Assembly: GCA_021732145.1 (NCBI GenBank)
Contig: JAKFVN010000005.1
Coordinates: forward strand, 7,019 to 71,018
From: Alphaproteobacteria bacterium
GTDB lineage: Bacteria > Pseudomonadota > Alphaproteobacteria > UBA9219 > RGZA01
DNA length: 64,000 bases
Direction of reading: 5' to 3'
Below the pieces are notes generated by a model. That model made no database searches. It was not told the origin of the DNA and worked only from the letters and a program-made list of their open reading frames with translations. Shown one piece after another: positions 9,992-28,143 of this stretch; position 1 is the first letter of the stretch, and each line of letters begins with the position of its first letter. A program made the position numbers and the translations under genes.

Positions 9992-10047
9992 TTTCCATTG
10001 AACAACTTGCATCGTTACAAAAGCGGTTTGTGCTATTCAAATCGACT

Positions 10048-11565: not shown

Positions 11566-11616
11566 TTTTCGTAGGCTGACTACGGATCAGAAGGTTAGAG
11601 ATTCGAATTCTCTCGG
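11566..11616 (+). repeat. perfect 51-bp direct repeat of the tRNA-Arg 3' half (identical to 9943-9993). Candidate attR or att remnant.
   Basis: ctgactacggatcagaaggttagagattcgaattctctcgggtgcaccatt is present at both positions. Confidence 0.85.
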
Positions 11617-11662
11617 GTGCACCATTCTTTCAGGCACATCACGCATAATGCTTGGATTGTTG

Positions 11663-12010
11663 GGGAAATTAAAACCCGCAGCAGTGCCAGAATTTTGCTA
11701 ACACCAACCCTACTGCGGGCAGATCGTTCTGCTTGAACAGGAACGAAGCTTCAATATATACGCCGATTTGCATAAAAAGTCATCAGGCTAAATTGCCATG
11801 ATTTGCAAATAATTAGCTGGACGATTCATGGCAAGCGCGTAGATTCGGCGGTGCTAACACCACCAACCAATCCAGTGACAGAATTCATTTTTACTCAGAA
11901 TAGTTTGAACGGCGCATTGTCCATTCCGCTTTTGCGGGTTGATGGCTCACGTCTGCGCTAACCTATTCGGGTATGCATGCATCTTTCACTGGTAACAGTG
12001 CCGGGATTCC
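11663..12010 (+). promoter_or_regulatory. conserved leader module, copy 1, upstream of the GT28 gene. The 49-nt invariant stretch is at 11671-11719.
   Basis: Contains the stretch aaaacccgcagcagtgccagaattttgctaacaccaaccctactgcggg (an imperfect hairpin); a promoter-like ttgcat-N15-taaatt; cgctggacgattca; a second gctaacacc box followed by ccagtgacagaat; and the hairpin ccgcttttgcggg. Confidence 0.6.
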
Positions 12011-13306: not shown

Positions 13307-13323
13307 AAACGAATATTCAAGAC

Positions 13324-14580
13324 ATGACTGATACGACGCCTTTACTGCTGACCGATGGTGAACTGGATGCCTTGCACCGCAGATTGGAACCATTTGCCGG
13401 TGCCGATATGCCGGATACCGATTTACCCATTCACGAATTCCGCACCGCGTTTATGTCGGATTTGCATTTGGGGCGGCCCGATAGCAAGACCGATAAACAA
13501 TCCATTTTTTTAGACCGTGCGCGGCTTTCCAACAAAATCATCATCAATGGTGACTTCATTGATTACTGGTTGTTCCGCGCATCACGCCCGCAGCATCTGG
13601 GCCGCATTTTCAAAGATGATACGCATATGCGCACTGCTGTGAAATTTTTAAAGCTGGCGGCGCATGTGGGTTTTCGCCTGGTAAAGTGGGAAGTGTTCAA
13701 GCCATCGGGCGATGAAACCATGCGCTGGGAACAATCGCATAATATCCCGCTGCAAAAACTGCTGCGCATATTGCGCAAAGTGCCGGGCATTTTCGTGCCC
13801 GGAAACCATGATGAAATCTTCCGCGGCTTTACCAATGAATTGCATTTAATGGGCGGGGATGTCGCCGCATTGGCTACAGCGAAAAACGGTGCGCCAATTG
13901 ACTCCAAATTGCGCAATGCGTATTTCAAAAGCCCGTCGCTGGGCAATATGGATGTGCTGGAAGAATTCGTGTATGAAACCATGTCGGGCGAGCATATGCA
14001 TGTGTGCCACGGCGATAAATTCGATAATCCCATGAAAAAATCCAGCGCGCTGGGCATGATGGCAACCTGCGTTTATCACAACGGCATTGCGCCGCTGGTG
14101 CGCAATCTCGGCTTTCCTGAAACGGCATCATCCATGACTGATTATGTGAACAGCATGGATGGCAAAAAGGACATGACGAAGTATTACGATCGCTACGCTG
14201 AATTTCTGGGTAATCAAAATGCAGCTATTGTGGAGCATAACCGTGCGCATCCTGACCAAAAGCCGCGCCCATTACTGCGCGGCGGCATTCATGGCCATAT
14301 TCATAATCCCGGTATTTTTCACCATCGCGGCTATGTATTTATCGATAGCGGCGATTGGGTGGATGATGCGCATTGCACCGCTGCCGTCGAGCATCGCGAT
14401 GGGTCATGGCAGATTATGACGGTCAATCGGGAGAAGGGGATACATCCGCATCCTGTTACGCCGGAACGCGTGCAGCTATTCCAAAACCGCAGCGCATTAT
14501 CGCCCATTCCCAAACAACGTCCGCCGCGTCCCGATGTGGGGTGGATGACGCCCGGTGCAACGATGGAGGCACGGCTATGA
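13324..14580 (+). CDS. calcineurin-like metallophosphoesterase (PlcP-like phospholipase C candidate)
   Basis: Metallophosphoesterase motifs MSDLHLG, NGDFIDYW and VPGNHD. Confidence 0.75.
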   Translation: MTDTTPLLLTDGELDALHRRLEPFAGADMPDTDLPIHEFRTAFMSDLHLGRPDSKTDKQSIFLDRARLSNKIIINGDFIDYWLFRASRPQHLGRIFKDDTHMRTAVKFLKLAAHVGFRLVKWEVFKPSGDETMRWEQSHNIPLQKLLRILRKVPGIFVPGNHDEIFRGFTNELHLMGGDVAALATAKNGAPIDSKLRNAYFKSPSLGNMDVLEEFVYETMSGEHMHVCHGDKFDNPMKKSSALGMMATCVYHNGIAPLVRNLGFPETASSMTDYVNSMDGKKDMTKYYDRYAEFLGNQNAAIVEHNRAHPDQKPRPLLRGGIHGHIHNPGIFHHRGYVFIDSGDWVDDAHCTAAVEHRDGSWQIMTVNREKGIHPHPVTPERVQLFQNRSALSPIPKQRPPRPDVGWMTPGATMEARL

Positions 14581-15428
14581 ACCATAAGAAATCACTTATC
14601 CTGCTTTTGGATATTGATGGCACATTGGTTGATACCGATGCGCATTTAAGCCATGCGATGACCGCGCAATTTGGAAAATACGGCTTGGCATTCGAACCGC
14701 ATGAATTTTTTGAGCCCAAGGCATTCACGATGCCCAATAAAGACGGGGTGATGGAGGTTAAAACCACCATGCTGTTCGGTGCATCATGGGAAATCAATTA
14801 TTATTATCTGAAATCAGAAATTCCCGATGTACCGGTGGATGTGCAAACCTTCCGCAAGGAAATCGTGGAACGCGTGACCAGCAACCATGATGGCGTGATG
14901 CCGCGCCGCGATGTTATTGAAGCCGTATTGGAATTGCGCGCGCATTGCGAAGCGAATGACATAGGTTTTGCTGCTGTTGCCGTTACCAATGGCGCAGGCA
15001 GCGAAGCCAACGCAAATCTGAAAATCGTGAAAGCCGCAGGATTAGTGGTGGATGGGCTGGTTAATGCCGATGATGTGGAAATTCCATATCGCAAGCCGCA
15101 CCCCAAGCCGTATCAGATGGGATATAACATTGCCCGCGCTGTATTGCGCCACAAAGGATATGATGCAGAAGGTGCATGCATTGTTGCGATGGAAGATAGC
15201 CCGCCGGGCGCGCGCAGCGCATTGGCGGCCGGCGAAATATATGACGGCGTGTGTTATTATATTCCCACAACCAAACGCAAAATGCTGATGCCGGAAATGA
15301 CCGATGCGCAATTGGAGCGTTTTGTAGTGCAGCAGGATATATCAGCGCTTGGCATGCATATTAAAACGCAATTGCATGGCAGAGGGGAGCGCGCAGCAAT
15401 GCAATTTGAGAAGCGTGCAGCGTTATAA
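14577..15428 (+). CDS. HAD-superfamily hydrolase / phosphatase
   Basis: HAD motif I LLLDIDGTLVDTD. Its start overlaps the upstream stop (ATGA). I chose the internal ATG at 14577 rather than the longer ORF from 14373. Confidence 0.7.
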   Translation: MNHKKSLILLLDIDGTLVDTDAHLSHAMTAQFGKYGLAFEPHEFFEPKAFTMPNKDGVMEVKTTMLFGASWEINYYYLKSEIPDVPVDVQTFRKEIVERVTSNHDGVMPRRDVIEAVLELRAHCEANDIGFAAVAVTNGAGSEANANLKIVKAAGLVVDGLVNADDVEIPYRKPHPKPYQMGYNIARAVLRHKGYDAEGACIVAMEDSPPGARSALAAGEIYDGVCYYIPTTKRKMLMPEMTDAQLERFVVQQDISALGMHIKTQLHGRGERAAMQFEKRAAL

Positions 15429-15438
15429 ATTTTATGTG

Positions 15439-15810
15439 GGGGAATTTAAAACCCGCAGCAGTGCCAGAATTTTGCTAACACCAACCCTACTGCGGGCAGA
15501 CATTCTCGCTAAACAAGAATGAAGCAATTAGATATAAGATGATTTGCATAAAAAGTCGATGAGGTAAATTGATACGAAAGTAAAATTATTCGCTGGACGA
15601 TTCAGTCAAATAATATAAATTTCATGTTGCTAACACCAACAACAACCAGTGACGGAATACCCTACTCAATTTGAAAATTATGGCATGGCAGGTTTACCCG
15701 CTTTAGCGGGGTGATTTGCATCGGCATTTTTAACAACAGAACGCGCAGGAATTGCGTTTTCTGCATGTGTGGGCGCGTGTTTTTGAACTGGCAACATTGC
15801 CGGAATACGA
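15439..15810 (+). promoter_or_regulatory. conserved leader module, copy 2, upstream of the four-gene operon. The 49-nt stretch is at 15447-15495.
   Basis: Same ordered blocks as copy 1: the 49-nt stretch, ttgcat-N15-taaatt, cgctggacgattca, gctaacaccaacaacaaccagtgacggaat, the hairpin cccgctttagcgggg, and attgccggaatacga immediately before the ATG. Confidence 0.6.
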
Positions 15811-16776
15811 ATGTCCCCTGATGCGAATTTACGGGAACGTGCGGAGCTTTGCCCAGAACCCAGCAGAGCATTGCCATTAGATGGGCAAGCTGCGCGTCGT
15901 CCACATGAAGTGATTTATACGCCAGCGCTCGCTGAAGCTATTCCTGATCCTCAATTGCAACGTATACCTCCGGGGCATGGGCTGGTGATGGTTGGCGAGA
16001 AGAAGCGCGCAATTGTTTTTCGTGACCATAGCAGCCGTGAAAACGTTCGCCGCACGCGCCAGACCTTGGCGCTGTGCGAACGTTATCATTATGATGTGTT
16101 GGTTGTTGACCCAGCGCGCGGGCAGCATGACGTGTTGCTGGATAAACGCGCGCAGGAATTTCTGCGCATAGACCGCGATTTACCGCTGATTACGCTGCAA
16201 ACTCCGCAATTAAGCAGGGAGCAGATGCTGAGCTGGCTGTTCAGTGCCAATACCAATATGGTACTGGAAGTTGCCAAGGACGGCCTGCGTATTCTGGCGG
16301 ATAGCCATGTGGATGCGCCATACGCGCAGAAAAAACTAAACCGCAATACGGATGTGATTGGCGTGAGCACGCATGAACGTTTGACGGATGATACCAAACA
16401 TCATGCACTCACATCATCTTACTTGATTATCGCAATTGATGAAACGCATGCGCAGCAACTTATCCGCAGTTATGGCACGGCGCATGCGGTGGTACATGGC
16501 GGGCATTCGCATGATTGTCAGCAAATTTCCGAAATGGCAGCGCGCACAGATAAAAAAGTTGCCGTATTCCACCCCGACCCGCCGCAACGTTTACAGCATG
16601 CAGGAAAAATAAGCTTATCGCGCCTTCGCGCCGATAACGCCGTGGTGATTACCACCACGCCGGACATGATCCGCGCATTGAAAGATCTTTCCAGGCCAAC
16701 GGGAGGCGCGCCGTTTTTTGCGCAGCGTCCCGGAACGCGTAACGGAGGAATGGTTCACGCCCCGCAAGTTTTATAA
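15811..16776 (+). CDS. hypothetical protein (321 aa), first gene of the large operon
   Basis: ORF directly downstream of leader copy 2. No motif recognised. Confidence 0.55.
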   Translation: MSPDANLRERAELCPEPSRALPLDGQAARRPHEVIYTPALAEAIPDPQLQRIPPGHGLVMVGEKKRAIVFRDHSSRENVRRTRQTLALCERYHYDVLVVDPARGQHDVLLDKRAQEFLRIDRDLPLITLQTPQLSREQMLSWLFSANTNMVLEVAKDGLRILADSHVDAPYAQKKLNRNTDVIGVSTHERLTDDTKHHALTSSYLIIAIDETHAQQLIRSYGTAHAVVHGGHSHDCQQISEMAARTDKKVAVFHPDPPQRLQHAGKISLSRLRADNAVVITTTPDMIRALKDLSRPTGGAPFFAQRPGTRNGGMVHAPQVL

Positions 16777-16805
16777 GGGCGTTTTTTGTTAAGTGAGGTT
16801 TGCTG

Positions 16806-19800
16806 ATGAGTAAAACCGACCCGTTGCACATTGCAGACGCCGCGCGTGATGTTGCGCAGCGTAAAAAAGACAAATCATTCAATTTGTTTTCGCCGGATTA
16901 TTGTTTGCAATTGCTGGGGCTGGATGGCGCGGTGAAGCCATTACCCAAAAACGAGCCGGTTATTCTAAGCGATGGCGCTATTGACCCGCGCACGGGCGGG
17001 GGCGTTGTCTTAAAAACAATGCTTAAGCTCGATGAACATAAGCGCCTGCGCAGCCTTGAGGCATTATATATGTCATTGCAGCCCAATGGGCGGTATGTGG
17101 TCAGCAAATTGGCAGAATTATCGTTCCGTGCTTATCCCAGCTATCTCGTATTACAGCAAGCCAGCATTCTTGGGCGCGGCATTAATCCGGATCATACCGA
17201 CCGCGTGCTGCGTTTATTTGGCGCGTTGCAACGCATGCATACCGATATTCGCAATATGAATTTTCCGGATGTTGGAAAAATCATGGATGAGTTCCAGATT
17301 TCCGCATTGATTGGTGAGCGGTTGCATCTGCCCGGCATGTCCGCCAAAGGCGGATTTGATTTTCAGGCACCGATTGATTTACCGGTTAGCGCGGGCGCAC
17401 CGCTATTGCCACGCGATTTCCTTCCCGAGCTGCTGGGCCTTGGCCGCAATGATTTGGAGCCGATGTATGATTTTGGCGATGGCCGTGCCAAGACAGAAAT
17501 CGATAGGCAACATGGCGCTATCCATAATTTCAAGGCCAATCTGGTGGCCGATGCCACGCAAGGATCGTTGATTGCGGTAACCACGCCGCATAATGCACGG
17601 CATGGCAGTGCGATTACCGATTTGATCAAGGTAGGCTGGCGGTTGAAGGGCGATCATGCATTACTCGACCAGTTTGTATTGCTCGGCGAAGAAAGCCGCA
17701 GCCTGCCAGCCGCGCAATTGCAAAAGCGCATCGGCATTGTGAACAAGGCGATGAAGAATTTGCGCATGCGCCGTTACCCGCATGTGCTGGATTACATCGC
17801 GGAATATGACCAGCGCGATTTGGTGGATAAGCGCGCGCTGACGGGCATGGTTGATGAGCACAAGCAAATGATTGTCGTGCCCTTTGGCGGGCATAATGAC
17901 CGCGAATATCTGCCGGGCTTTGGCGCGACGATTGGCGGCAATTGCAAAGGTATTTTTACCTATTGGCGCGATGCGAATGGGCAGGTGCAGCGCAAGGGCG
18001 TTATCATCGATATGGGAATTATTTTTAGTAAGAACCATGCGGTGCAAGCGAGCGAGCAAGGCAATTGGGATTACGTGGTTCCCGATATTGTGAATTACCT
18101 CAACGATATCGACCATTTTTTTGCCACGCATTTACACGCTGACCATCTGGATGGATATATCGATTACATTGCGCGCGGCTTGATGCAGGGAAAGCATCTC
18201 CACGCCACTGCCTTCGTATGCCGCGTGCTGGAACAAAAGCTGAAGAAACGCAAAGTACCGCAGGAACGCTGGCCGCACATGCACACGCTGAAAGGCAAGG
18301 GCTTTGTGCATATTGCGGCGGGCGATGAGCGCGTGATGTCGGTTTATTATGCGGCCGACAGCATTCCGCACAGCACCGATAACACGCCGTATCTCGTACT
18401 GCCCGCGCCATATCGCTGCGATACCAAAGGTGTGCCAAAAGAGAAAGCTGTCACCGTCAATCCGCATTACTGGGTTTATGGCAATATGGGCGATACCAGT
18501 TTCGGGCGTTATAATTTGCCGGATTACGAAGGTGAGAAACCGCCCGATACCGGTTTCTCGCAAGATTTGCTGCGCATCTTTAAAAAAAATCTGGGCGGCG
18601 AATACAATGGCATTGCCAAAGCATCGCAAGCTGCGTTTGGCAAAGTGCATTTCATGGAGTGCGATCCCACATCCATTCACCGTGACGGCTTTGCGCCCGA
18701 TGTAGTGGATGTGGAGCAAAACCTTTGCTGTCTCAATGAATGGTTTTCGGATAAGGGGCTTATCCTGTTGGGTTTAAGTACAGCAAAGCGTCAGGATGAA
18801 ATGTGCCTGCGCTTTGCCAATCATTCGCAGCGCGATGTATCGGTATTTGGTGCGTATAAGGAAGACCGCTTCACTGATATGAGCGTGATGGGCGTGAACA
18901 CCAATGTGCTGGCGCGTAATCCGGCTGGAAAAAATGTGCAGGCGTATCTGGATTGGCATGGCGGCAGCAAAGGCGTGGTGCCCGTTAAATATTTCCGCCG
19001 CACCGCAAAGGAATGGCATGGCATTGTGGATGCGGATGTTAGCCGCGTGCTCATCCTTGGCACCGGCAGTCAGGGTACCGATATTGAAAAGGATGCGTTT
19101 GGCACGCAACTTGCGGAATTCCGCTCGCTTTTGCAAATGGATCCCAAATATCGCCCAACCGCGTTTGGCAAGGATTTGCGGAATTTCTTGGTTGTATATG
19201 CGCAGGGCGCCATTCCTGGGAATGAAGAAACGCAATATGCGCAAATTAAGAAAACTGCGATTGAGCTGGATATCACCGTTGCTGTTTCCGTGCATGAAGG
19301 CGCGCGGTTTTATAATGTAAAGGAATCGTATCTCTCGCGCATTGTTCAGGATTTGGAACGGCGCGGCGAACGCTTCACGCGCGAACCCAATAACGGCTTG
19401 TTCATTCAAAAATTTGCGCTCTACCCGCCGGGTCATGGCTGGAAGGAAGATTACCGCCAGGGCGTATTCCCGTGGATGAAGAAAAATGGCGTGGGCATGA
19501 TTTCCGCGCAGCATTTCGGCAAATTGGAATCCCCGCGCATCACGCATGAATTAGCGCGCGAGGCGGGCTTGCGTCACCCCAATGAAGCGATTTCAAACCA
19601 CACCGCCTTTTCAATGCGTGATGGCGGAAAACGCCTCGAAATTATCGGGCAGTTGCCGCCATCCTTTATTTTGGCGCGGCAAAACCGCCGCGCCGATAAA
19701 TATCATGGGGGCACGGCAGAATATAAGCGCGTGGTGGTCGCAGCGGGGCAGGTGGGTGCATCGCTTGGCGGGCTATTTGCCAACACCAACACGGTCTATA

Positions 19801-19994
19801 CGCAGGATTTCGGGAATGAAGATTACGACCGCGTGCTGTCGGAGGCGCAATGGCTGCCCGCCAAGCGCACGCGCCGCGATATTCATGCGGCACTCACCGA
19901 ATTGCCGCCGGAACTCGCCGCACGGCGCAATTTGCCAACGGCGGGCATGCGCACGCCCGCGCTTCCGCAGCATGATCATCTGGAGTTTGCCTGA
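16806..19994 (+). CDS. large hypothetical protein (about 1062 aa) with a metallo-beta-lactamase-fold signature, possibly beta-CASP-like
   Basis: HxHxDH motif (FATHLHADHLDG) followed by candidate MBL motifs IPHSTD and NMGD. A ribosome-binding site GTGAGGT precedes the ATG at 16806. Confidence 0.6.
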   Translation: MSKTDPLHIADAARDVAQRKKDKSFNLFSPDYCLQLLGLDGAVKPLPKNEPVILSDGAIDPRTGGGVVLKTMLKLDEHKRLRSLEALYMSLQPNGRYVVSKLAELSFRAYPSYLVLQQASILGRGINPDHTDRVLRLFGALQRMHTDIRNMNFPDVGKIMDEFQISALIGERLHLPGMSAKGGFDFQAPIDLPVSAGAPLLPRDFLPELLGLGRNDLEPMYDFGDGRAKTEIDRQHGAIHNFKANLVADATQGSLIAVTTPHNARHGSAITDLIKVGWRLKGDHALLDQFVLLGEESRSLPAAQLQKRIGIVNKAMKNLRMRRYPHVLDYIAEYDQRDLVDKRALTGMVDEHKQMIVVPFGGHNDREYLPGFGATIGGNCKGIFTYWRDANGQVQRKGVIIDMGIIFSKNHAVQASEQGNWDYVVPDIVNYLNDIDHFFATHLHADHLDGYIDYIARGLMQGKHLHATAFVCRVLEQKLKKRKVPQERWPHMHTLKGKGFVHIAAGDERVMSVYYAADSIPHSTDNTPYLVLPAPYRCDTKGVPKEKAVTVNPHYWVYGNMGDTSFGRYNLPDYEGEKPPDTGFSQDLLRIFKKNLGGEYNGIAKASQAAFGKVHFMECDPTSIHRDGFAPDVVDVEQNLCCLNEWFSDKGLILLGLSTAKRQDEMCLRFANHSQRDVSVFGAYKEDRFTDMSVMGVNTNVLARNPAGKNVQAYLDWHGGSKGVVPVKYFRRTAKEWHGIVDADVSRVLILGTGSQGTDIEKDAFGTQLAEFRSLLQMDPKYRPTAFGKDLRNFLVVYAQGAIPGNEETQYAQIKKTAIELDITVAVSVHEGARFYNVKESYLSRIVQDLERRGERFTREPNNGLFIQKFALYPPGHGWKEDYRQGVFPWMKKNGVGMISAQHFGKLESPRITHELAREAGLRHPNEAISNHTAFSMRDGGKRLEIIGQLPPSFILARQNRRADKYHGGTAEYKRVVVAAGQVGASLGGLFANTNTVYTQDFGNEDYDRVLSEAQWLPAKRTRRDIHAALTELPPELAARRNLPTAGMRTPALPQHDHLEFA

Positions 19995-22900
19995 TGGCCA
20001 TGCCAGACCCGCAGATGCAGCGCCATTTTTCCATGAACTATTACCGCGGGCCAGCGCAGGAAACGTTTTACAGCGCCCATCCTGATTACAGGCCATCATA
20101 TGATGATGTGCGGCATATGGTGGAAGCCGGAAAGCTCATTGAAATCTTCTATGATTTCGAAGCATCCGATAAACTGGCGGGCAGCGCCGTGCCAAAAGAA
20201 TATGCTGCGCTGGCCTTTGATTTGCGCGGGCGGCTGCTGGCGCATTTACGCATTCCCATCGCTATTCCCGAGCATCAGGCCTATGCCATTGGCGCGGCAT
20301 TGGTGGGCCGCATCGGCGTGCGTGATATGGCGCAAGGTTGGCCGGGCCATATGGCGGCGACCATGGTGCAAAACTTCCTTAAAGAATCCACACAGCTCAA
20401 CGGAAATGTATTAGGGCTAGAAGAAGTCACCTTTGCTGATGGCAAAAAAGGCTTCCGCTATGATTTGCCAAGCGATGGCAAAGCGCCGGTTGAATTGGAA
20501 ATCCACCAAAGCGGAAAAAAATTCCGTTTTGCTGGCGAGGAAGACTGGCAAAAAATCTACGGCGTATCGCAGCCATTCAACGGCGAAAATTATGATGACC
20601 CGATGGCCAGCCATTGGTATGCGCGCATGGGCATGGCGAGCCTGTTCCCCGGAAACCAGAAACGCCACGATACATTCCGCGAAGACGTGCGCGCCAAAGC
20701 CATTTGGGAATGGGCATTTGGCAAGCAAGGCAAGGATGGTTTGGTGTTGCCAGACCGCTGGCATAAAAAGACCAAACGCATGGTGCGCTCAACGCGCCTT
20801 GGCGATATTTTGCTGGCCAATAGCCGTACAGCCAACCGTGCGCGCGGTGTGGAAGGCGGGGCGGTGTTCTATGATGGCCGCGACCCAGACCCAGAAATCA
20901 TGCATGCATCCGATGAAGATGCGGCGGGTACAGCCGCGCTTAGTTTTTATCTGCGCCGCCTTGACCCTGAAGGCATGCGGTTTGTTTCCAGTTTGGCAGA
21001 GCGCAATAGTTATAAGGATTTCCTGCAAGGCACGGATGATTTCACCGACCGCCCGGCGCTTGGTTTCGTGCATTATGATGAAGGGATGCTGACGCGCGGC
21101 ATTGGCACGCTGCTGGCGACCGATGATGAATATGACGGCTTTGGCGACCGCAAGCGCGCGCTGCTGTTTAATTTATGCCATAATCCCGATGATTTATTGC
21201 ATTTGAACCATGAACAATTGCGCCCGCTGCTGGTGCAGCGGCACAACCCGATTTTTGTGCCATTGGTTTTAAACCGCACGCCGCAAGTGTGCGAATTTGA
21301 CCGCGCCTATAAGGCAGGCGCGGGCGGGCAGCACTCACCGGAAGAATATCACCGCCGCCGCCATGTTATTCTTAGCCACCGCGCATTCATTCAGCGCGTG
21401 ATGGAAACGCAGCTGGATTTGGTTAGCGTAACGCGTCCGCCCAATATCGTGACGACGCGGTCATTGGAAGACGATAGTTACAGTAGATATGGCGATTTGA
21501 AATACTTTGCGTATAAGGATGCTGCGACGGGGCAAGTTATCCCCATTCGCAAAACGGAATACCCTGATGTGTATGCACGCGCGACCAATAAATGGAATTA
21601 TGTGCGCCAGTTTGATTATTTGCTGCGCAGGGCAACCGAAGGTCATGCGATTGAATACAGCGATGATGACACAGCGCTGCTGGATTATCAGGAACGGCTG
21701 AAGGAAGTTGAACGCAAGTTGAAAGCGCATCAAGTCGGGTGGGATAAGCCGTTCACTTTGCCGGAAACCGGCATGGCGCTGGGCACGATTGAAGATGCGC
21801 GCATGCATTTATGGACGCTGCGCCACGCATGCCGCGCCGCATTGTTCAATTGCGTGCCGGAATTCTGGGTGATTAATTCGCGTGGGCAGCGTTTGCCGTG
21901 GGAAAAAGTGATTGCGATGGAAAGCGGCACGCGCAAAGGGCAATGGCCGCTGCGCGAAGACCGCGAAACGGGCGACCATTTGCGCATTACGTTTGAGCGC
22001 AATGATAAATTGCATGCCATTATCACCGCGCTGCGCGTTTTAGATGCCGATGCGTTTCTTGCAAAGCAGGGAAGCAGGCGCTGGCAAGAATGGTGGCGCA
22101 ATTATGTGGATACGAACTACGCCGAATGGAAACCGTTTTACGAAGCGTTTATCACATTGGGCGTGCAAGGCCCGCCGAACTTAGAGGCATCCGAACAGCG
22201 CCGCATGAGCGAGCGCAAGGCATTGCTGGAAATCGACCAGTTGATGAACAAGGCGGCGGAAACACCCGCCAGCGATTACATCCGCACGGTTTTAAAAACG
22301 CCGCAGGGGCAAAAACTGCTCGCGGAGCATCACGCGCATAAAAAACGCCGCATGAAAGCGTATCGGTGGACACCGGATAAGATGGAATTGATGGGATACG
22401 ATGCGCAGACGGCGTACCCAACGCTGAATACGCGTTACCGCATTGACCCGAAGAAGCTGATACGCCTGAAAGTGCCGGATGTAATGCTGGATCACCCGGA
22501 TTGGGATGATCACTGGCATCGCTTCCATATTATTGAACGCCCGCACCGCGATGTGCTGCGCGCCATTGAAAAGGCCGGGCCGGATACAGTCGTGTTGCTG
22601 GAAGGCGAAGCCACAGGCATGTTCCGCCTGGCAGCAAAAGCCGTGTGTCACCGCTTGCCGCCGCAGGGCGAGCGCACCCAGCAGGCAATTGCACGCGCAA
22701 AAAGTTCATATGGCACGGTTGGCAGGCAGTTATCCGGCCTTGCCGATGGGTTGCGCCTATTGAGTTTCGAGCAAATGGCGCCCGTGCATTTTGAACGCAA
22801 GGTGGATGAGTGTATTCAGCATGTCGCACTGCCGGCGCAGGATTGGGCGGGTTTAGCCGATGCCCGCGCAGGTGGTTTGCCAAAACCGCTGAAGAAGCTG

Positions 22901-23305
22901 ACCGGCATTATTGTGCGTGATACGGGTCAGGAATTCACCCAAGGGGATATTCGCCTGCGCCGCATGTCACGCGGGGAAGAAACGGGCGATGAGTATTCAG
23001 GGCGCCTCAAATCCGCGCAGCGCGTATCGCTCGACGATATTTGCAAGATGAGCGATGCGCAGGCGCAGCCATTCGGAAAATTATCCGCCGCCGATTTATA
23101 CAGCCAATGGAAAAAACTATTTGCCGATATGCGCGTCACTGACCCCGCCAAACAAAAGCTGTGGATTTTGAAGCTGGAGCGCCCGGTTAGCAAACTGACC
23201 TACACTTATTTCAACCGCGCGCAGCAGCCGGTTGCTGCGTTTATTTCCACACGGCCATTAAAAGGCCGCCAACAAAAACCGCAAGCTAGAAGGGCCGCAG
23301 CATGA
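19994..23305 (+). CDS. large hypothetical protein (1103 aa)
   Basis: Its start overlaps the upstream stop by 1 nt (TGATG). No NTPase motif. A possible DnaQ-like Exo-I-type DxE (IFYDFEASD) lies near the N-terminus. Confidence 0.55.
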   Translation: MAMPDPQMQRHFSMNYYRGPAQETFYSAHPDYRPSYDDVRHMVEAGKLIEIFYDFEASDKLAGSAVPKEYAALAFDLRGRLLAHLRIPIAIPEHQAYAIGAALVGRIGVRDMAQGWPGHMAATMVQNFLKESTQLNGNVLGLEEVTFADGKKGFRYDLPSDGKAPVELEIHQSGKKFRFAGEEDWQKIYGVSQPFNGENYDDPMASHWYARMGMASLFPGNQKRHDTFREDVRAKAIWEWAFGKQGKDGLVLPDRWHKKTKRMVRSTRLGDILLANSRTANRARGVEGGAVFYDGRDPDPEIMHASDEDAAGTAALSFYLRRLDPEGMRFVSSLAERNSYKDFLQGTDDFTDRPALGFVHYDEGMLTRGIGTLLATDDEYDGFGDRKRALLFNLCHNPDDLLHLNHEQLRPLLVQRHNPIFVPLVLNRTPQVCEFDRAYKAGAGGQHSPEEYHRRRHVILSHRAFIQRVMETQLDLVSVTRPPNIVTTRSLEDDSYSRYGDLKYFAYKDAATGQVIPIRKTEYPDVYARATNKWNYVRQFDYLLRRATEGHAIEYSDDDTALLDYQERLKEVERKLKAHQVGWDKPFTLPETGMALGTIEDARMHLWTLRHACRAALFNCVPEFWVINSRGQRLPWEKVIAMESGTRKGQWPLREDRETGDHLRITFERNDKLHAIITALRVLDADAFLAKQGSRRWQEWWRNYVDTNYAEWKPFYEAFITLGVQGPPNLEASEQRRMSERKALLEIDQLMNKAAETPASDYIRTVLKTPQGQKLLAEHHAHKKRRMKAYRWTPDKMELMGYDAQTAYPTLNTRYRIDPKKLIRLKVPDVMLDHPDWDDHWHRFHIIERPHRDVLRAIEKAGPDTVVLLEGEATGMFRLAAKAVCHRLPPQGERTQQAIARAKSSYGTVGRQLSGLADGLRLLSFEQMAPVHFERKVDECIQHVALPAQDWAGLADARAGGLPKPLKKLTGIIVRDTGQEFTQGDIRLRRMSRGEETGDEYSGRLKSAQRVSLDDICKMSDAQAQPFGKLSAADLYSQWKKLFADMRVTDPAKQKLWILKLERPVSKLTYTYFNRAQQPVAAFISTRPLKGRQQKPQARRAAA

Positions 23306-25572
23306 GCACAGAACCCGATTATGCAGCATTATACCGTGATGTTCATTTGTTTGGCGAGAAGCGCGGAATGTTTTCACCGTTTTATCAAGCGCATGCGCGA
23401 AAGAAAGGCCCGCGCTTTGACCAAATGCGTGCGGTGAACACGGTTGCGTTTGTAACATTGGCGCAGTTGCTGCAGGGCAAACGCACGATTTACCGCTTTG
23501 GTGCGATTTCAAAAGGCATGCGTGCCAATTATCAGGCGAAGATGAACGGCCCATTCATGGTGGAACGCGGCGACGGGTCATTAAAGCGCGGTTTTGATAC
23601 GCTTGATCTCGATGAAAAAATTGGCTCGCAGCAATATGTCGCCGAAGTCATTCTGCCGAACCAGCGCACGCAGATTGAGGGTCTCAGCTTCCTGCGTTCG
23701 CTGTTTCCGGAAAGCCCGGTGATTGTGCCCGCGTTTTTGCAGGCAGCAACCGTGCTGGCTGGCCAGCCCAATTTCGACCGTGGCGTAAAGCGCAAGGACA
23801 AGGATTACATGGTGCTGTGGGACCCCGTGATTGTGGAGTTGATTAACATGCTGCCCATGCAGGGGGATTGGCATTTCTCGCGCTCATCACACCTTGAACT
23901 GGGCCGCGCCGTGTTGATTGCCGCGGGATTGGAACCACGCAGACCCGAAGCGGATATGAGCTTCCCCGATGTTGAAAAAAATGAAGTCACACTATTTGAA
24001 ATGGCAAAGAAACGCCTTGAGTACCTGGTATGGGCGGCAGAAAACAAATTTGATTTGGATATAGAGCCAACGCATCTTGTTCGTGACTTGGCGATTGCGC
24101 AAATGGCGGAGCGCGGGCTGCTGCCCAATGCCAACCCCGTATTCATGGCGGGGATTGAAGCGAATATTGCAGGCCTTCGTGAGTTGCAAAAGGAAGTCGA
24201 ACCGTTTTTGCTGGCGCAAATTAAAGCGGATAAGTTTGAAATTGATACAACGGATTTGAAAGCGGTTAATCCCAATTTCGCGTTTTCCGTTGAAGCGGCA
24301 AAGAGCGGTGTATTGCCCGCCTCATCCTTCAGTCTTTCGGGCATTGCGGACAGGTTCGGTTTGCGCCGCTATTCCGATGCCGATTTGCAATCGGATATTT
24401 ATAACAGTGAAGAAATCCAGCGCATGAACAGGCAGGGGTTTGCGCTGGGCGCGGGGGATATTTTCCTTCCCCCCATGCGCCCCAGCGATACGGAGGCCAA
24501 ATCGCTGAAAGACCATGATGGGCGCAGCATTTTCTCCCGCCCCGTCATCACCGATTTGACCGAGCGTGAGATGATGCAGGCGCAGTTTGTGCTGGGCGCG
24601 GCAGAAACATTCATGCTGCCTGCCAAGCGCACGCTGTTTATTGTCGCCGATGATAAGTACGGGCCGGAAACCGCAAAACTGAACGGGCTGGCGTATGATG
24701 ATGAAGCGCCCAATGCCGCTGGCGCGGAGTTCCAAAAGAAAGTTCGCGAGCCGCATCGCGCCATCATCCGTGACTTGCAGCACCAGCTAAGCGCGCACGG
24801 CCATGTGATTAGCGCGCCGGACTTCCAACGTGTTTATGGCGTGTTCCAAGCCTTACCGGAATTTGCGGTATCGCCCGGCGAAGCCATGCCCGGAAGCGCG
24901 GCGCGGCTGGCGGCACGGCACCGTTACCTTGCGCGCAACGTGACCGATTTTGTGTTCAAGACAGGAATGTGGGAACAGTCGAATGACGGGGTGCAGGATA
25001 TGATTTTGGCAACCCGCATGCAGTTGGGACTGGAATCTGGCGCAGCACATGAACCGCACACCATTCGTGTCGTTGACGAAAACGGCAAGCCGCTATCGCT
25101 GGCTGACCGTGCGATGGCGATATGGCCGCAGTTGAAGAAGGCGATTGAAGCAGGGCGTGACGCGCATGATTTGGTGGAGCCAGCAACGGCGATTGCGCAG
25201 TGTTGGGCGTTCCACCGCTTGCTCACCGATCATCCGCTGCGCCAGATGGTGTTCACCGATTTACGCGAAAAAGAAAAGCTGTTCCTCCCCGCGAATATGA
25301 ATTGGCACCGCTTGCCCGTGCAACCCGGGGCCTATGGCCAGCAGGAATTTGAAAAATTATGGCATGACGAAATCAAGCCTGCGCTCGAAGGACGCATGGC
25401 AATGGCCGTGCGCACGCGTCACTTATCGCACATGGATGATTTTGCGGAATTAAAACGCAGGCAGGATGCCGCGCAAAAAATGGATATGGCTGGCACGCGG
25501 CCAGAAGCGGCGCGCGCGGCAAAAAGCGGCGGCGTGGCTGGCGTGCGCGAAGCGGCGCGCAATACCATGTGA
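23302..25572 (+). CDS. hypothetical protein (756 aa), last gene of the large operon
   Basis: Overlaps the upstream gene by 4 nt (ATGA). No recognised motif. Confidence 0.55.
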   Translation: MSTEPDYAALYRDVHLFGEKRGMFSPFYQAHARKKGPRFDQMRAVNTVAFVTLAQLLQGKRTIYRFGAISKGMRANYQAKMNGPFMVERGDGSLKRGFDTLDLDEKIGSQQYVAEVILPNQRTQIEGLSFLRSLFPESPVIVPAFLQAATVLAGQPNFDRGVKRKDKDYMVLWDPVIVELINMLPMQGDWHFSRSSHLELGRAVLIAAGLEPRRPEADMSFPDVEKNEVTLFEMAKKRLEYLVWAAENKFDLDIEPTHLVRDLAIAQMAERGLLPNANPVFMAGIEANIAGLRELQKEVEPFLLAQIKADKFEIDTTDLKAVNPNFAFSVEAAKSGVLPASSFSLSGIADRFGLRRYSDADLQSDIYNSEEIQRMNRQGFALGAGDIFLPPMRPSDTEAKSLKDHDGRSIFSRPVITDLTEREMMQAQFVLGAAETFMLPAKRTLFIVADDKYGPETAKLNGLAYDDEAPNAAGAEFQKKVREPHRAIIRDLQHQLSAHGHVISAPDFQRVYGVFQALPEFAVSPGEAMPGSAARLAARHRYLARNVTDFVFKTGMWEQSNDGVQDMILATRMQLGLESGAAHEPHTIRVVDENGKPLSLADRAMAIWPQLKKAIEAGRDAHDLVEPATAIAQCWAFHRLLTDHPLRQMVFTDLREKEKLFLPANMNWHRLPVQPGAYGQQEFEKLWHDEIKPALEGRMAMAVRTRHLSHMDDFAELKRRQDAAQKMDMAGTRPEAARAAKSGGVAGVREAARNTM

Positions 25573-25604
25573 TGGATTGGGCAATCGAGTGAGTTAGGAT
25601 TTTC

Positions 25605-25944
25605 GAGGACTAAAAACCCGCAGCAGTGCCAGAATTTTGCTAACACCAACCCTACTGCGGGTCATTGCGTTCTGAACGTTGAAGCAGAACGAACCTTCAT
25701 ATTTATGCTGATTTGCCTAAAGAGTCGATATGGAAAATTGATACGAAAGTAAAATAATTCGCTAGACGATTCATTTTATTCGGGTAAGTTTTGCGTCGCT
25801 AACACCACTAAACCAGTGACAGAATCACTATCTGAACATGCATGTGGCACAATGTGATTACCCGCTTTAGCGGGGTAGTCTTGCGCCAAGCTTGATGTGC
25901 ATGTGGATAACTTTCTGGCATTGGCACAATTGCCGGAATATCCA
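25605..25944 (+). promoter_or_regulatory. conserved leader module, copy 3. The 49-nt stretch is at 25613-25661.
   Basis: Same blocks as copies 1 and 2, including the hairpin cccgctttagcgggg at 25861-25875 and caattgccggaatatcca immediately before the ATG at 25945. Confidence 0.6.
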
Positions 25945-27042
25945 ATGCCCCACAAGGCACACGAAGAACCAGAACCCAAAATTGCCCAAATAAGCCCGGA
26001 TGTGCTGCGTCATATTGACCGCGCCAATAATGTTGATTGGGACAGGGTTGTGCCGCTTGCCATCAATTATGGCCGTTGCAGAGCAACTGGCATAATGGTG
26101 AAAGAGTTTGCCGAAGAGCTGGCGGCGGCTGGCTTCGTAAAGCAGGCAGGCAACGGTACTTATGCGCTGAATATCGAAAAGCACCCGCTGGCCAAGGAAG
26201 ATGTTGAAGCGCATATCAAGACAGTCGAGCAATACTGCATTGAAAAGAAGCATATTGCGGAGCTGCGCGGCGAGCGCCTGTATTTAACCGACAGTTTAAA
26301 CCCCGAACATAAAGACCGCTATGCCACCTATGACCGCAATTTGCGCGTGATGGGCTTTTGGGTGCATTCGGTATGCGTGATTACGCATCAATGCACGGGC
26401 GAGCATAAGGGCGATCTCATTCTGGCGGAACGCCACCCGCTGATTATCGAAACCAAGAATGACAGCAAATGGGATCCGTTATCGGGCGCGATTGCCGCGG
26501 GCACAACGCCATTTGAAACATTGGTCAGCGAAGGGTTTGATGAGTACGGTTTAAGCGAGCGCCAGATGCGCCGCGCGCGACCCTTAACAACAGTGACAAC
26601 GCAGCGCGTGTGCAGCGAAAACTCAAATCATATTGTGCGTGAACGTGTGCAGGTCAGCATGCTTGGCTTAACCGGAAAAGAATTCAAACGCCTGGCCTGC
26701 CATGACGTGAAAGATGTGGTGGTGCGGCACGGCGAAGGCACGCGCAAGATGGGCGTGACATCGAATGTCGGCTTTGTGCGCGTATCGCCTGGCAAGGTGA
26801 TGGAGCATTTGCGCAAGCGCAAGCACTTGAAGAACGGCAAGGCCTTATCGATGCTCAGCTATTTGGTGCGTGAGGGCCATACTGCAGCAGCCGACCCCAG
26901 CGCGGCAGATATCCGCAATCGCCTTGCGCATAAGCCAAAAACCTATTGCCGCACCAGCAAAACCTGGAAAATGCATATCCGCACGCCGGTTCGCGGCGCG
27001 ATGCGTCATGCGCAACCTGCACAATGCAGGCTTGCGGCATGA
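25945..27042 (+). CDS. hypothetical protein with a degenerate Nudix-like box
   Basis: GAIAAGTTPFETLVSEGFDEYGL resembles the Nudix motif Gx5Ex7REUxEExGU. I set the start at 25945 because the leader alignment with copy 2 places the ATG there; the longer ORF from 25897 would run over conserved leader sequence. Confidence 0.5.
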   Translation: MPHKAHEEPEPKIAQISPDVLRHIDRANNVDWDRVVPLAINYGRCRATGIMVKEFAEELAAAGFVKQAGNGTYALNIEKHPLAKEDVEAHIKTVEQYCIEKKHIAELRGERLYLTDSLNPEHKDRYATYDRNLRVMGFWVHSVCVITHQCTGEHKGDLILAERHPLIIETKNDSKWDPLSGAIAAGTTPFETLVSEGFDEYGLSERQMRRARPLTTVTTQRVCSENSNHIVRERVQVSMLGLTGKEFKRLACHDVKDVVVRHGEGTRKMGVTSNVGFVRVSPGKVMEHLRKRKHLKNGKALSMLSYLVREGHTAAADPSAADIRNRLAHKPKTYCRTSKTWKMHIRTPVRGAMRHAQPAQCRLAA

Positions 27043-28139: not shown

Positions 28140-28143
28140 AAGG

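What the first reader, a model, noticed from the sequence alone, without database searches (positions are those of the whole stretch)
15811..25572. Roughly 10-kb operon of four translationally coupled genes encoding very large proteins of unknown function: candidate novel system
Genes of 321, 1062, 1103 and 756 aa are arranged with start/stop overlaps: TGATG at 19994 and ATGA at 23302. A ribosome-binding site sits 30 nt after the first gene. This implies co-translation and probably a multiprotein complex. I found no Walker A/B, helicase, methyltransferase, integrase or transporter motif. The only recognisable signature is a metallo-beta-lactamase HxHxDH in the second protein. The block sits in the accessory region, directly downstream of leader copy 2. 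That places it under the same control as the lipid-remodelling-like operon and the ATP-grasp/PhoH operon. The size and organisation recall multi-gene defence or effector systems, but the lack of NTPases argues against the common defence architectures. It could be a new enzymatic machine, for example a nucleic-acid or polymer-processing complex.
Basis: partly seen in the sequence, partly recalled or inferred. Interest (0 to 1): 0.85.

Follow-up and report, generated by a model that had tools for sequence, protein, structure and literature searches.

The report
Undescribed three-enzyme nucleic-acid degradation module
The block is a real, strongly conserved but extremely rare operon whose three giant core proteins are very divergent relatives of RNase J, Exonuclease I and a nucleotide base-removing enzyme, and which probably breaks nucleic acid down to sugar-phosphate; no such system has been described.

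Summary
There are four co-directional ORFs of 321, 1062, 1103 and 756 aa, with TGATG and ATGA overlaps, directly after a repeated ~380-nt leader.

The interpretation needs correcting. Only g2, g3 and g4 form a universal module. It occurs in about 19 non-redundant loci, as g2-g3-g4 or permuted as g4-(X)-g2-g3. g1 occurs only in the window's close relatives.

The proteins are not featureless:
- g2 is an RNase J-like beta-CASP metallo-nuclease.
- g3 is an Exonuclease I-like DEDDh 3'-5' exonuclease with a C-terminal ASCH/PUA-like domain.
- g4 is a tandem duplication of a deoxyribosyltransferase/DNPH1/TIR-like domain with one invariant Glu.

The only recurrent annotated neighbour is deoxyribose-phosphate aldolase (DeoC). 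It lies next to g4 in five loci, in both gene orders.

Best reading (inferred): a cytoplasmic complex degrades single-stranded nucleic acid from both ends. It then strips the bases from the mononucleotides, and the deoxyribose-5-phosphate goes to DeoC.

A defence role is not supported: there are no PADLOC hits, no defence islands, no NTPase, and no phage or plasmid copies. It cannot be excluded.

No Pfam, NCBIfam or literature description exists. At system level it is new.

The parts
15435..15810 (+). Leader copy 2. It is a conserved non-coding element that also precedes the lipid-remodelling-like operon (11658-12010) and the g5/ATP-grasp/PhoH operon (25600-25940).
   Evidence: Searches show three copies in the window. 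Three copies each occur in relatives L011 and L012, and one copy lies directly upstream of g2 in L003, which lacks g1. There is no Rfam family. Only 4 of 33 predicted pairs show compensatory change.
15811..16776 (+). g1, a 321-aa basic protein of unknown fold with a conserved AHAVVHGGHxHDC motif. It is a lineage-specific accessory gene, not part of the universal module.
   Evidence: It is found only in L001/L002, L011 and L012 at 62-63% identity. dN/dS is 0.17-0.21. It has no Pfam, NCBIfam, PADLOC, PHROGs or PDB match.
16806..19994 (+). g2, a 1062-aa RNase J-like beta-CASP metallo-beta-lactamase nuclease.
   Evidence: A PDB profile search gives RNase J1 3zq4 at E 3e-5, with further RNase J chains below it. 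The alignments cover HxHxDH, the DST-like motif A, TGSQG and IPGNE. There are weak Lactamase_B_2 and RNase J1 hits. T441, H442, H444, D446, H447, H522, D563, D620, H877 and H903 are invariant in 12 homologues, including 28-30% identical ones.
16884..17870 (+). The g2 N-terminal extension: two tandem copies of an unknown ~155-aa domain (aa 27-184 and 200-355).
   Evidence: hhalign self-comparison of alignment A2 gives probability 84-89% and E 2e-6 to 7e-6. No family match was found.
17883..19595 (+). The g2 catalytic core, MBL plus beta-CASP (about aa 360-930).
   Evidence: The boundaries are approximate and inferred from the RNase J alignment.
19994..23305 (+). g3, a 1103-aa Exonuclease I-like DEDDh exonuclease with a long helical middle part and a C-terminal beta-rich part.
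20036..21433 (+). The g3 DEDDh exonuclease and ExoI-like region (about aa 15-480). The catalytic residues are D54, E56, D201, H304 and D309.
   Evidence: These residues are invariant in 12 close homologues and in the distant clades L009, L010, L016, L021 and L025. In the PDB profile search the four best hits are all Exonuclease I (E 0.011-0.21), aligned on the DxE and Hx4D motifs.
22871..23188 (+). The g3 C-terminal ASCH/PUA-like domain (about aa 960-1065, boundaries approximate).
23302..25572 (+). g4, a 756-aa protein made of two homologous NDT/DNPH1/TIR-like alpha/beta domains embedded in novel helical elements.
23449..24006 (+). The g4 N-terminal NDT/TIR-like copy (aa 50-235), with the IYxxGAISKG loop and the invariant E199. 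It is the putative active site.
   Evidence: G72, E199 and G209 are conserved in 41 of 41 family members, S193 in 40 of 41 and R214 in 39 of 41. The motifs resemble DNPH1 LYFCGSIRGG and SLGVGYELGRA (DNPH1 sequence verified). The hhalign support is weak and the register is ambiguous, so the equivalence E199 = catalytic Glu is an inference.
24574..25176 (+). The g4 C-terminal copy of the same domain (aa 425-625). It lacks the conserved Glu (position 566 is L or D), so it is probably a non-catalytic pseudo-dimer partner.
   Evidence: hhalign of the N-terminal part against the C-terminal part of alignment A5 gives probability 98.3% and E 2.4e-14 over 155 columns. Column counts are in the same call.

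Best explanation
g2, g3 and g4 encode a cytoplasmic three-enzyme complex that takes single-stranded nucleic acid apart completely. DNA is at least one substrate.

- g2, an RNase J-like beta-CASP nuclease, cuts endonucleolytically and degrades 5'-to-3'.
- g3, an Exonuclease I-like DEDDh enzyme, has an ASCH/PUA-like domain that probably holds the strand or a base. It degrades 3'-to-5'.
- g4, a pseudo-dimeric DNPH1/deoxyribosyltransferase/TIR-like enzyme with one catalytic Glu, hydrolyses the N-glycosidic bond of the released (deoxy)nucleoside monophosphates to give a free base plus (deoxy)ribose-5-phosphate.
- Deoxyribose-5-phosphate needs DeoC to enter central metabolism. This would explain why deoC is the only gene recurrently attached to the module.

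In the window's lineage the module has gained g1. It also sits behind a shared leader with a PlcP/glycosyltransferase-like lipid-remodelling operon and an ATP-grasp/PhoH operon. This suggests induction under nutrient stress, possibly phosphate stress.

What is shown: the gene set, its conservation and coupling, the catalytic motifs of g2 and g3, the fold assignments, the duplication in g4, and the DeoC linkage.

What is inferred: complex formation, the substrate, the g4 chemistry, the order of the pathway, and the regulation.
For: 1. Obligate triad. g2, g3 and g4 co-occur in every locus long enough to tell, as g2-g3-g4 or g4-(X)-g2-g3. This holds even for the most distant g4 relative, found at E 1e-6. 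The 1-4 nt overlaps or gaps between the genes are conserved. dN/dS is 0.045-0.09.
2. g2 is RNase J-like, with all metal and beta-CASP residues invariant.
4. g4 has a high-confidence model. Its only PDB similarity is to N-glycosidic-bond enzymes of the NDT/MilB/TIR/LOG class. It is an internal duplication with a single Glu invariant in 41 of 41 sequences.
5. A bona fide deoC lies directly next to g4 on the same strand in five loci covering both gene orders: L005 and L017 after g4, and L016, L019 and L021 before g4. TIGR00126 scores are 219 bits in L005, above the 117.3 cut-off, and 114.7 bits in L016.
6. RNase J homologues are documented to degrade ssDNA 5'-3' (PMC6447361). DNPH1 is named a 2'-deoxynucleoside 5'-phosphate N-hydrolase in PDB entries.
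7. E. coli needs ssDNA exonucleases including ExoI to use DNA as a nutrient. This is Palchevskiy & Finkel 2009; the reference was seen, and its content is from my own knowledge.
8. The leader is shared with PlcP-like and PhoH operons, and it also precedes g2 directly in L003.
Against: - No biochemical data exist.
- DeoC is adjacent in only 5 of about 19 loci, and these reduce to two or three lineages.
- RNase J enzymes are primarily RNases. From memory, a His at beta-CASP motif C (H903) is typical of RNA-acting members.
- Proteins of 1062, 1103 and 756 aa, with large unexplained regions, are far bigger than simple catabolism needs. The unexplained regions are the g2 N-terminal repeats, the g3 helical middle and the g4 helical parts.
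- The extreme rarity of the module is unusual for a housekeeping pathway.
- No Pho box is present in the leader.
Confidence: 0.42

Rival explanations
1. An anti-phage or anti-mobile-element immune system. A TIR/NDT-like domain (g4) acts as an NAD+ or nucleotide-depleting effector or signal generator, and two nucleases (g2, g3) destroy invader or host nucleic acid. Possibly they also dispose of modified nucleotides from phage DNA.
For: - Nucleases are common defence effectors.
- The module is rare and patchily distributed, has permuted gene order, and sits in unrelated genomic contexts.
- Large multidomain proteins with unexplained regions could be sensors.
- ASCH/PUA-like domains can read modified bases (my own knowledge).
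Against: - All four proteins give no PADLOC or PHROGs hit.
- No neighbouring restriction-modification, CRISPR, integrase or transposase genes occur in any of the loci examined.
- There is no NTPase or STAND-like sensor.
- Purifying selection is very strong.
- No copies occur on plasmids, phages or IMG/VR contigs.
- The module shares a leader with metabolic operons, and it is linked to deoC.
Confidence: 0.2
2. A stress-induced RNA-turnover machine, a non-canonical degradosome. It would degrade rRNA and mRNA to NMPs and then to ribose-5-phosphate plus bases, recycling phosphorus, carbon and nitrogen during starvation. DNA would not be the physiological substrate.
For: - The closest relatives of g2 are RNase J enzymes, with His at motif C.
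- ASCH domains are linked to RNA; YqfB acts on N4-acetylcytidine.
- The sister operons, PlcP-like and PhoH, suggest a starvation regulon.
Against: - The best structural match of g3 is the ssDNA-specific Exonuclease I.
- The only recurrent neighbour is deoxyribose-phosphate aldolase, which is irrelevant for RNA.
- The module contains no helicase, PNPase or RNase E-like scaffold.
Confidence: 0.2
3. A DNA-repair or end-processing complex. An SNM1/Artemis-like beta-CASP nuclease, a proofreading-type exonuclease and a glycosylase-like protein would act on damaged or cross-linked chromosomal DNA.
For: Beta-CASP nucleases and DEDDh exonucleases both have repair roles (my own knowledge). An N-glycosidic-bond enzyme could excise damaged bases. 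uvrA and dnaE lie within 20 kb in the window.
Against: - At sequence level g2 aligns with RNase J, not SNM1.
- The proximity of uvrA and dnaE is not conserved in the other loci.
- The deoC linkage and the shared leader with metabolic operons do not fit.
- The module is absent from almost all bacteria, which is unlike a repair pathway.
Confidence: 0.08

Closest known systems
RNase J (bacterial and archaeal beta-CASP 5'-3' exo- and endoribonuclease)
   Same: g2 shares the MBL motifs (HxHxDH, H, D), the beta-CASP motifs A, B and C, and the RNase J-typical TGSQG and IPGNE stretches. RNase J chains are its best PDB sequence hits.
   Different: g2 is twice the size, at 1062 aa against about 555. It has a ~360-aa N-terminal extension made of two repeats, insertions and a different C-terminus. 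It scores 23 bits against a cut-off of 820 for the NCBIfam RNase J1 model. It is always encoded with g3 and g4.
Exonuclease I (SbcB) of E. coli and the DEDDh exonucleases (TREX1, RNase T, Pol III epsilon)
   Different: Sequence identity is about 13% and no Pfam model recognises it. It has an insertion between Exo motifs I and II. A further ~620 residues follow, including a helical region with no match and an ASCH/PUA-like domain.
DNPH1/Rcl, nucleoside 2'-deoxyribosyltransferases, MilB, and TIR domains (N-glycosidic-bond enzymes with a flavodoxin-like fold)
   Different: There is no significant sequence or Foldseek match. Each copy carries a ~50-residue insertion. The second copy lacks the Glu. 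About 400 further residues have no known counterpart. The activity is untested.
The deo pathway, and use of DNA as a nutrient via ssDNA exonucleases in E. coli (Finkel & Kolter 2001; Palchevskiy & Finkel 2006, 2009)
   Same: The logic is the same: single strands are degraded by 5'-3' and 3'-5' exonucleases, and deoxyribose-5-phosphate is cleaved by DeoC. deoC is physically linked to the module in five loci.
   Different: In E. coli the nucleases are separate, small, unlinked housekeeping enzymes. The sugar phosphate arises through nucleoside phosphorylases and DeoB, not through a dNMP N-glycosidase. No dedicated three-gene module is known.
RNA degradosome and RNase J-helicase minimal degradosomes
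   Same: A multi-enzyme assembly combining an endo/5'-exonuclease with a 3'-exonuclease.
   Different: The module has no RNase E scaffold, no PNPase, no DEAD-box helicase and no enolase. It includes a nucleotide-level enzyme, and no component is orthologous.

Membership tests
Metallo-beta-lactamase / beta-CASP nucleases (g2) | MBL motifs: HxHxDH, a downstream His, and an Asp or Cys | tested here: met
   H442, H444, D446, H447, H522 and D563 are invariant in 12 homologues. They align to the RNase J HGHEDH motif.
Metallo-beta-lactamase / beta-CASP nucleases (g2) | Beta-CASP motifs A (Asp/Glu), B (His) and C (His or Val) | tested here: inconclusive
   Motif A (D620) aligns with the RNase J DST motif. 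H877 (GHG) and H903 are invariant and in the expected order, but they were assigned by position only. No structure of g2 was available.
RNase J orthologues (g2) | A score above the curated family threshold, and the ~555-aa architecture with a C-terminal dimerisation domain | tested here: not met
   The NCBIfam RNase J1 score is 23.3 bits against a cut-off of 820. The Pfam Lactamase_B_2 score is 19.9 bits against 27. The length is 1062 aa. g2 is RNase J-like, not an RNase J.
DEDDh 3'-5' exonucleases / Exonuclease I (g3) | Exo motifs I (DxE), II (D) and III (Hx4D) | tested here: met
   D54, E56, D201, H304 and D309 are invariant in all clades and align with ExoI D15, E17, D108, H181 and D186.
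DEDDh 3'-5' exonucleases / Exonuclease I (g3) | RNase H-like exonuclease fold plus the ExoI-specific additional domains | tested here: met
DEDDh 3'-5' exonucleases / Exonuclease I (g3) | Recognition by the curated sequence models (Pfam RNase_T or Exonuc_X-T) | tested here: not met
   g3 has no Pfam or NCBIfam hit. The PDB profile E-values of 0.011-0.21 are marginal.
ASCH / PUA-like domains (g3 C-terminus) | A small beta-barrel fold of about 100 residues | tested here: met
NDT / DNPH1 / MilB / TIR N-glycosidic-bond enzymes (g4) | A flavodoxin-like alpha/beta domain of this class | tested here: met
NDT / DNPH1 / MilB / TIR N-glycosidic-bond enzymes (g4) | A catalytic Glu at the start of the helix after the fourth strand | tested here: inconclusive
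   E199 is invariant in 41 of 41 sequences and lies in the helix after strand 181-183. Its alignment to DNPH1 E104 appears only when the insertion is removed, at probability 1.4%. No superposition was possible.
NDT / DNPH1 / MilB / TIR N-glycosidic-bond enzymes (g4) | Sequence-level membership (Pfam Nuc_deoxyrib_tr, TIR and similar models) | tested here: not met
   No Pfam hit was found even at E 10 on ten isolated domains. There is no PDB profile hit. Foldseek on the whole chain finds nothing.
Known anti-phage defence systems | A match to a PADLOC model, or location in a defence island or on a mobile element | tested here: not met
   There are no PADLOC or PHROGs hits. No defence genes occur among the neighbours. 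Homologues are absent from plasmids, phages and IMG/VR.
Pho regulon | A Pho box (tandem CTGTCAT repeats) in the promoter region | tested here: not met
   No match falls in any leader, and the number of matches in the window equals the chance expectation. Only the E. coli-type consensus was tested.
Known RNA families (leader) | A match to an Rfam covariance model | tested here: not met
   At gathering threshold only two tRNAs were found in the window. A permissive scan of the leader gave only a chance-level hit.

The most novel reading that the evidence does not exclude
The triad is a previously unknown kind of molecular machine: a self-contained disassembly line. It would couple bidirectional exonucleolysis of a single strand to immediate removal of the bases from the released nucleotides. 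Its purpose could be dedicated intracellular DNA or RNA catabolism in nutrient-starved bacteria. Alternatively it could be a new immune strategy that destroys invading DNA and also disposes of its, possibly modified, nucleotides. The large unassigned regions (the g2 N-terminal repeats, the g3 helical core and the g4 helical parts) would be new folds that build the complex and gate its activity.
Probability: 0.35. Interest if true: 0.85.

Novelty: categorically new. Interest (0 to 1): 0.74.

Why it matters
- If the reading is right, this is a new multi-enzyme system for complete intracellular breakdown of nucleic acid. It would include the first bacterial module that links nucleases directly to a nucleotide N-glycosidase and DeoC.
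- It defines three protein families with no Pfam or NCBIfam model: a giant RNase J-like nuclease, a giant ExoI-like exonuclease with an ASCH domain, and a tandem NDT/TIR-like protein. Each has a clear catalytic signature and can therefore be tested directly in vitro.
- It bears on how oligotrophic bacteria recycle or scavenge phosphorus, carbon and nitrogen from DNA and RNA.
- It bears on the evolutionary range of the TIR/NDT fold outside immunity.
- If it turns out to be a defence system instead, it would be a new architecture without an NTPase sensor.
- The shared, conserved ~380-nt leader offers a handle on a small, uncharacterised regulon.

Tried and rejected
- **Single-sequence family scans.** Pfam, NCBIfam, PADLOC and PHROGs on all four proteins gave only sub-threshold MBL and RNase J hits for g2. 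PDB phmmer gave nothing.
- **Full-length g3 profile against PDB.** Nothing. The ExoI hits appeared only with an N-terminal alignment that included distant clades.
- **g4 sequence and fold searches.** The g4 profile against PDB gave nothing. Pfam at E 10 on ten isolated g4 N-domains gave nothing. Foldseek of the g4 model against PDB gave nothing significant. afdb50 was not available.
- **hhalign of g4 against DNPH1 and L. leichmannii NDT.** The results were weak, and the unmanipulated alignment chose a register that conflicts with the predicted secondary structure. The claim that E199 is the catalytic Glu is therefore kept only as an inference.
- **Shared domains.** hhalign among g1-g4 found none between proteins. 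g1 is not related to the small X protein that sits between g4 and g2 in the distant clade.
- **Leader.** It is not a sigma-54 promoter: by inspection, the TGGCA-N-TGCC spacing before the start codons is 3 nt too short. It has no Pho box and no Rfam family. RNAalifold found only short hairpins with little covariation. I did not resolve whether it acts as DNA or RNA.
- **Other collections.** Searches of plasmids, phages and IMG/VR found no homologues.
- **Literature.** Searches for the domain combination found nothing.
- **Taxonomy.** Beyond 'Alphaproteobacteria bacterium' MAG labels it could not be refined.

Full report
**Observation.** The four ORFs exist exactly as described: g1 15811-16776 (321 aa), g2 16806-19994 (1062 aa), g3 19994-23305 (1103 aa) and g4 23302-25572 (756 aa). 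For g2, the mechanical ORF starts at TTG 16800. The g2/g3 junction is TGATG and the g3/g4 junction is ATGA. A GTGAGG ribosome-binding site precedes the g2 ATG, which lies 30 nt after the g1 stop.

None of the proteins has a Walker A motif, a hydrophobic segment long enough to span a membrane, or a signal-peptide-like N-terminus. The window comes from a 775-kb metagenome contig, ENA ERZ1079237 k127_68826. It is chromosomal: proB, obg, uvrA, dnaE and the rpsB-tsf-pyrH...dxr-rseP-bamA...lpxB cluster flank a region bounded by two tRNA genes.

**The genes are real.** Full-length homologues of g2, g3 and g4 exist, but they are extraordinarily rare.
- Among 5.8 billion clustered proteins there are 12, 11 and 8 clusters respectively.
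- Among 185,579 species-representative genomes there are 3 loci.
- Among 241 million metagenome records there are 7 loci.
- A profile of g4 found 60 representatives among 1.84 billion.

Against the two closest relatives (L011, L012), dN/dS is 0.045-0.09 for g2-g4 and 0.17-0.21 for g1. All four genes are therefore under purifying selection, the three large ones very strongly.

**What travels together.** Gene tables and local BLAST over 26 fetched loci (about 19 non-redundant) show that g2, g3 and g4 always co-occur.
- In the window's wider clade (38-99% identity) the order is g2-g3-g4, with the same 1-4 nt overlaps.
- In distant clades (22-31% identity) the order is g4-(X, 137-314 aa)-g2-g3-(small 81-108 aa protein). 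This holds even around the most remote g4 relative, P0081, found at E 1e-6.
- g1 is present only in the window's near relatives (L002, L011, L012; 62-63% identity). It is absent from L003, L005, L006 and all distant loci.

The unit is therefore a three-gene module, and g1 is a lineage-specific addition. One copy in a 1-Mb contig (LZQP01, L008/L022) appears broken into fragments.

**g2.** A profile of 12 homologues hits RNase J structures first (3zq4 at E 3e-5, with several others below it). The alignments cover the HxHxDH motif, the DST-like beta-CASP motif A, and the RNase J-typical TGSQG and IPGNE stretches. H442, H444, D446, H447, H522, D563, D620, H877 and H903 are invariant, including in 28-30% identical members.

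g2 fails the curated thresholds: 23 bits against 820 for NCBIfam RNase J1, and 19.9 against 27 for Lactamase_B_2. It is twice the size of RNase J. About 360 N-terminal residues consist of two copies of an unknown ~155-aa domain (hhalign probability 84-89%).

**g3.** The alignment shows three invariant motifs that match the DEDDh signature: FYDFEAS (D54, E56), FNGENYDD (D201) and MHASDEDAAGTAAL (H304, D309). They are also conserved in the distant clades and align with E. coli ExoI D15/E17, D108 and H181/D186.

g4 is an internal duplication. Residues 50-235 and 425-625 align with probability 98.3% and E 2.4e-14. Only four columns are invariant across the 41 sequences: G72, E199, G209 and W557. 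S193 and R214 are nearly invariant.

The first copy carries IYxxGAISKG and GDWxFSRxSxxE(199)xxRG. These resemble the DNPH1 phosphate loop LYFCGSIRGG and catalytic segment SLGVGYE(104)LGRA (DNPH1 sequence verified against PDB). E199 sits at the start of the helix after strand 181-183, the place where this enzyme class has its catalytic Glu. The hhalign support for that register is weak and ambiguous, so this remains an inference.

The second copy lacks the Glu: position 566 is L or D. A catalytic copy plus a degenerate copy would mimic the dimers in which these enzymes normally work. That last point is my own knowledge of NDT and DNPH1.

**Context.** Neighbours differ from locus to locus. They include an ABC exporter, polyketide and ACP genes, T2SS, cytochrome bd and methionine synthase. 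None is a defence, integrase or transposase gene.

An all-against-all clustering of flanking ORFs finds only one recurrent annotated neighbour outside the window's own genus: deoxyribose-phosphate aldolase. It lies next to g4 on the same strand in L005 and L017 (after g4) and in L016, L019 and L021 (before g4). The L005 protein scores 219 bits on the deoC equivalog TIGR00126 (cut-off 117.3). The L016 protein scores 114.7 bits.

An ATP-grasp gene follows in three loci. In the window it resembles cyanophycin synthetase. An M17 aminopeptidase follows in two loci.

**Regulation in this window.** The ~380-nt leader occurs three times in the window and three times each in L011 and L012. In L012 the order of the operons is different. 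One copy lies directly upstream of g2 in L003, where g1 is absent. The leader-module link is therefore older than g1.

The other two leader-controlled operons encode an MGDG-synthase-like glycosyltransferase, a metallophosphoesterase and a HAD hydrolase on one side, and an unknown protein, an ATP-grasp ligase, PhoH and a dienelactone hydrolase on the other. The first set has the gene content of PlcP/Agt lipid remodelling, which is my own knowledge.

This suggests a starvation regulon, but no E. coli-type Pho box is present. The leader matches no Rfam family. It is conserved mostly at the sequence level and has only short hairpins. Four of the 33 predicted pairs show compensatory change. How it works is unresolved.

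**Most likely mechanism (confidence about 0.4).** A cytoplasmic complex degrades single-stranded nucleic acid from both ends: g2 works 5'-3' and endonucleolytically, and g3 works 3'-5'. g4 then hydrolyses the released mononucleotides to a base plus (deoxy)ribose-5-phosphate.

Ribose-5-phosphate enters the pentose-phosphate pathway directly, whereas deoxyribose-5-phosphate needs DeoC. This gives a simple reason why deoC, and only deoC, is repeatedly attached to g4.

There are precedents for the parts:
- RNase J homologues degrade ssDNA 5'-3' (PMC6447361).
- DNPH1 is a 2'-deoxynucleoside 5'-phosphate N-hydrolase (PDB names).
- E. coli can consume DNA, with one strand entering the cytoplasm (PMC9273947). 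It needs ssDNA exonucleases to do so (Palchevskiy & Finkel 2009; reference seen, content from my own knowledge).

What is shown: the composition, conservation, coupling, catalytic signatures, folds, the g4 duplication and the deoC linkage. What is inferred: the physical complex, the substrate, the g4 chemistry, the order of steps and the physiological trigger.

The large unassigned regions, the great size of the proteins and the rarity of the module are not explained by simple catabolism.

**Rivals.**
1. A defence system with a TIR/NDT-like effector and nucleases (0.2). TIR hits and the patchy distribution speak for it. Against it are the lack of PADLOC or PHROGs hits, of defence-island context, of any NTPase, and of plasmid, phage or IMG/VR copies. 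The very low dN/dS and the metabolic linkage also count against it.
2. An RNA-turnover machine (0.2). This is favoured by the RNase J and ASCH affinities and disfavoured by the ExoI-like fold and deoC.
3. A DNA-repair complex (0.08). It has little specific support.

**Comparison and novelty.** Each catalytic domain belongs to a known superfamily. However, all three proteins fail every curated family model, and no family, structure or paper describes them or their combination. The closest known things are RNase J, Exonuclease I, DNPH1/NDT/TIR, the deo pathway and RNA degradosomes. The module is not a member of any of them. At the level of the system I rate it categorically new, with the caveat that its function is inferred from sequence and models only.

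**Verdict.** The finding is real and more interesting than an operon of unknown function. It is a well-defined, ancient, three-enzyme module that can be tested directly. The four-gene unit, the claim that the MBL motif is the only signature, and the leaning towards defence do not hold.

Noticed in passing
window 9915-9993 and 11576-11626: An exact 51-nt direct repeat. One copy is the 3' part of the tRNA gene at 9915-9988 and the other lies 1.6 kb downstream. The repeats flank a low-GC (38%) insert carrying one HAD-like ORF (10564-11448). This looks like a small tRNA-integrated islet with att-like repeats and no integrase. The relative L011 has a YjdM/PhnA gene at this place instead.
   Followed up: partly
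window 11658-12010, 15435-15810, 25600-25940; also L011, L012, L003:6374-6616: A conserved ~380-nt leader stands in front of three operons. It contains the motifs GCTAACACCA and CAGTG(A/C)C(A/G)GAAT, each twice. It has two hairpins with compensatory changes in relatives (CCCGCAG...CTGCGGG and CCCGC-TTTA-GCGGG). A TGGCA-N-TGCCGGAAT element abuts each start codon. It matches no Rfam family and has no Pho box. The mechanism is unknown.
   Followed up: partly
window 23291-23302 (g3 C-terminus) and 19980-19991 (g2 C-terminus): Ten of the 12 aligned g3 sequences end in Ala-Ala, for example RRAAA or GVAA. The exceptions are P0005, which ends in VA, and P0007, which ends in PV. The close g2 homologues end in HLE(F/V/I)A or similar. 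The Ala-Ala ends recall ssrA-like C-terminal degrons for ClpXP, which could keep nuclease levels low. This was not tested.
   Followed up: no
L012 versus window 12011-29424: In the relative L012 the three leader-controlled operons are in a different order: lipid operon, then g5/ATP-grasp/PhoH, then g1-g4. In L011 an M17 aminopeptidase is inserted after g4. Each operon seems to move as a cassette together with its leader.
   Followed up: partly
L008 / L022 (LZQP01000001.1, 1.03-Mb contig): The module copy in this genome looks decayed. g4 is intact (794 aa), but g2 is split (850 + 135 aa) and g3 is in fragments (164 + 573 aa). This suggests pseudogenisation.
   Followed up: partly
window 27039-28139: The best NCBIfam matches of the ATP-grasp protein downstream are the ligase domain of cyanophycin synthetase (E 6e-37, far below the cut-off) and GshAB-type ligases. 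A homologue follows the module in L003, where an M17 aminopeptidase comes next. This may be a peptide-forming and peptide-cleaving pair.
   Followed up: no
window 25945-27042 and 30730-32433: Two further conserved ORFs (365 aa and 567 aa) in the same region have no Pfam or NCBIfam match. The 365-aa gene always precedes the ATP-grasp gene in L001, L011 and L012.
   Followed up: no
L009, L010, L016, L018-L021: In the permuted clade two extra small genes are conserved with the module. X (137-314 aa) lies between g4 and g2, and an 81-108-aa protein lies directly after g3. Neither has any family match, and neither is related to g1.
   Followed up: partly
window 5184-8863 (- strand): Two adjacent paralogous ~610-aa proteins combine N-terminal TPR repeats with a C-terminal glycosyltransferase family 9-like region. 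They lie next to a GT2 gene. The pair is conserved in L011.
   Followed up: no
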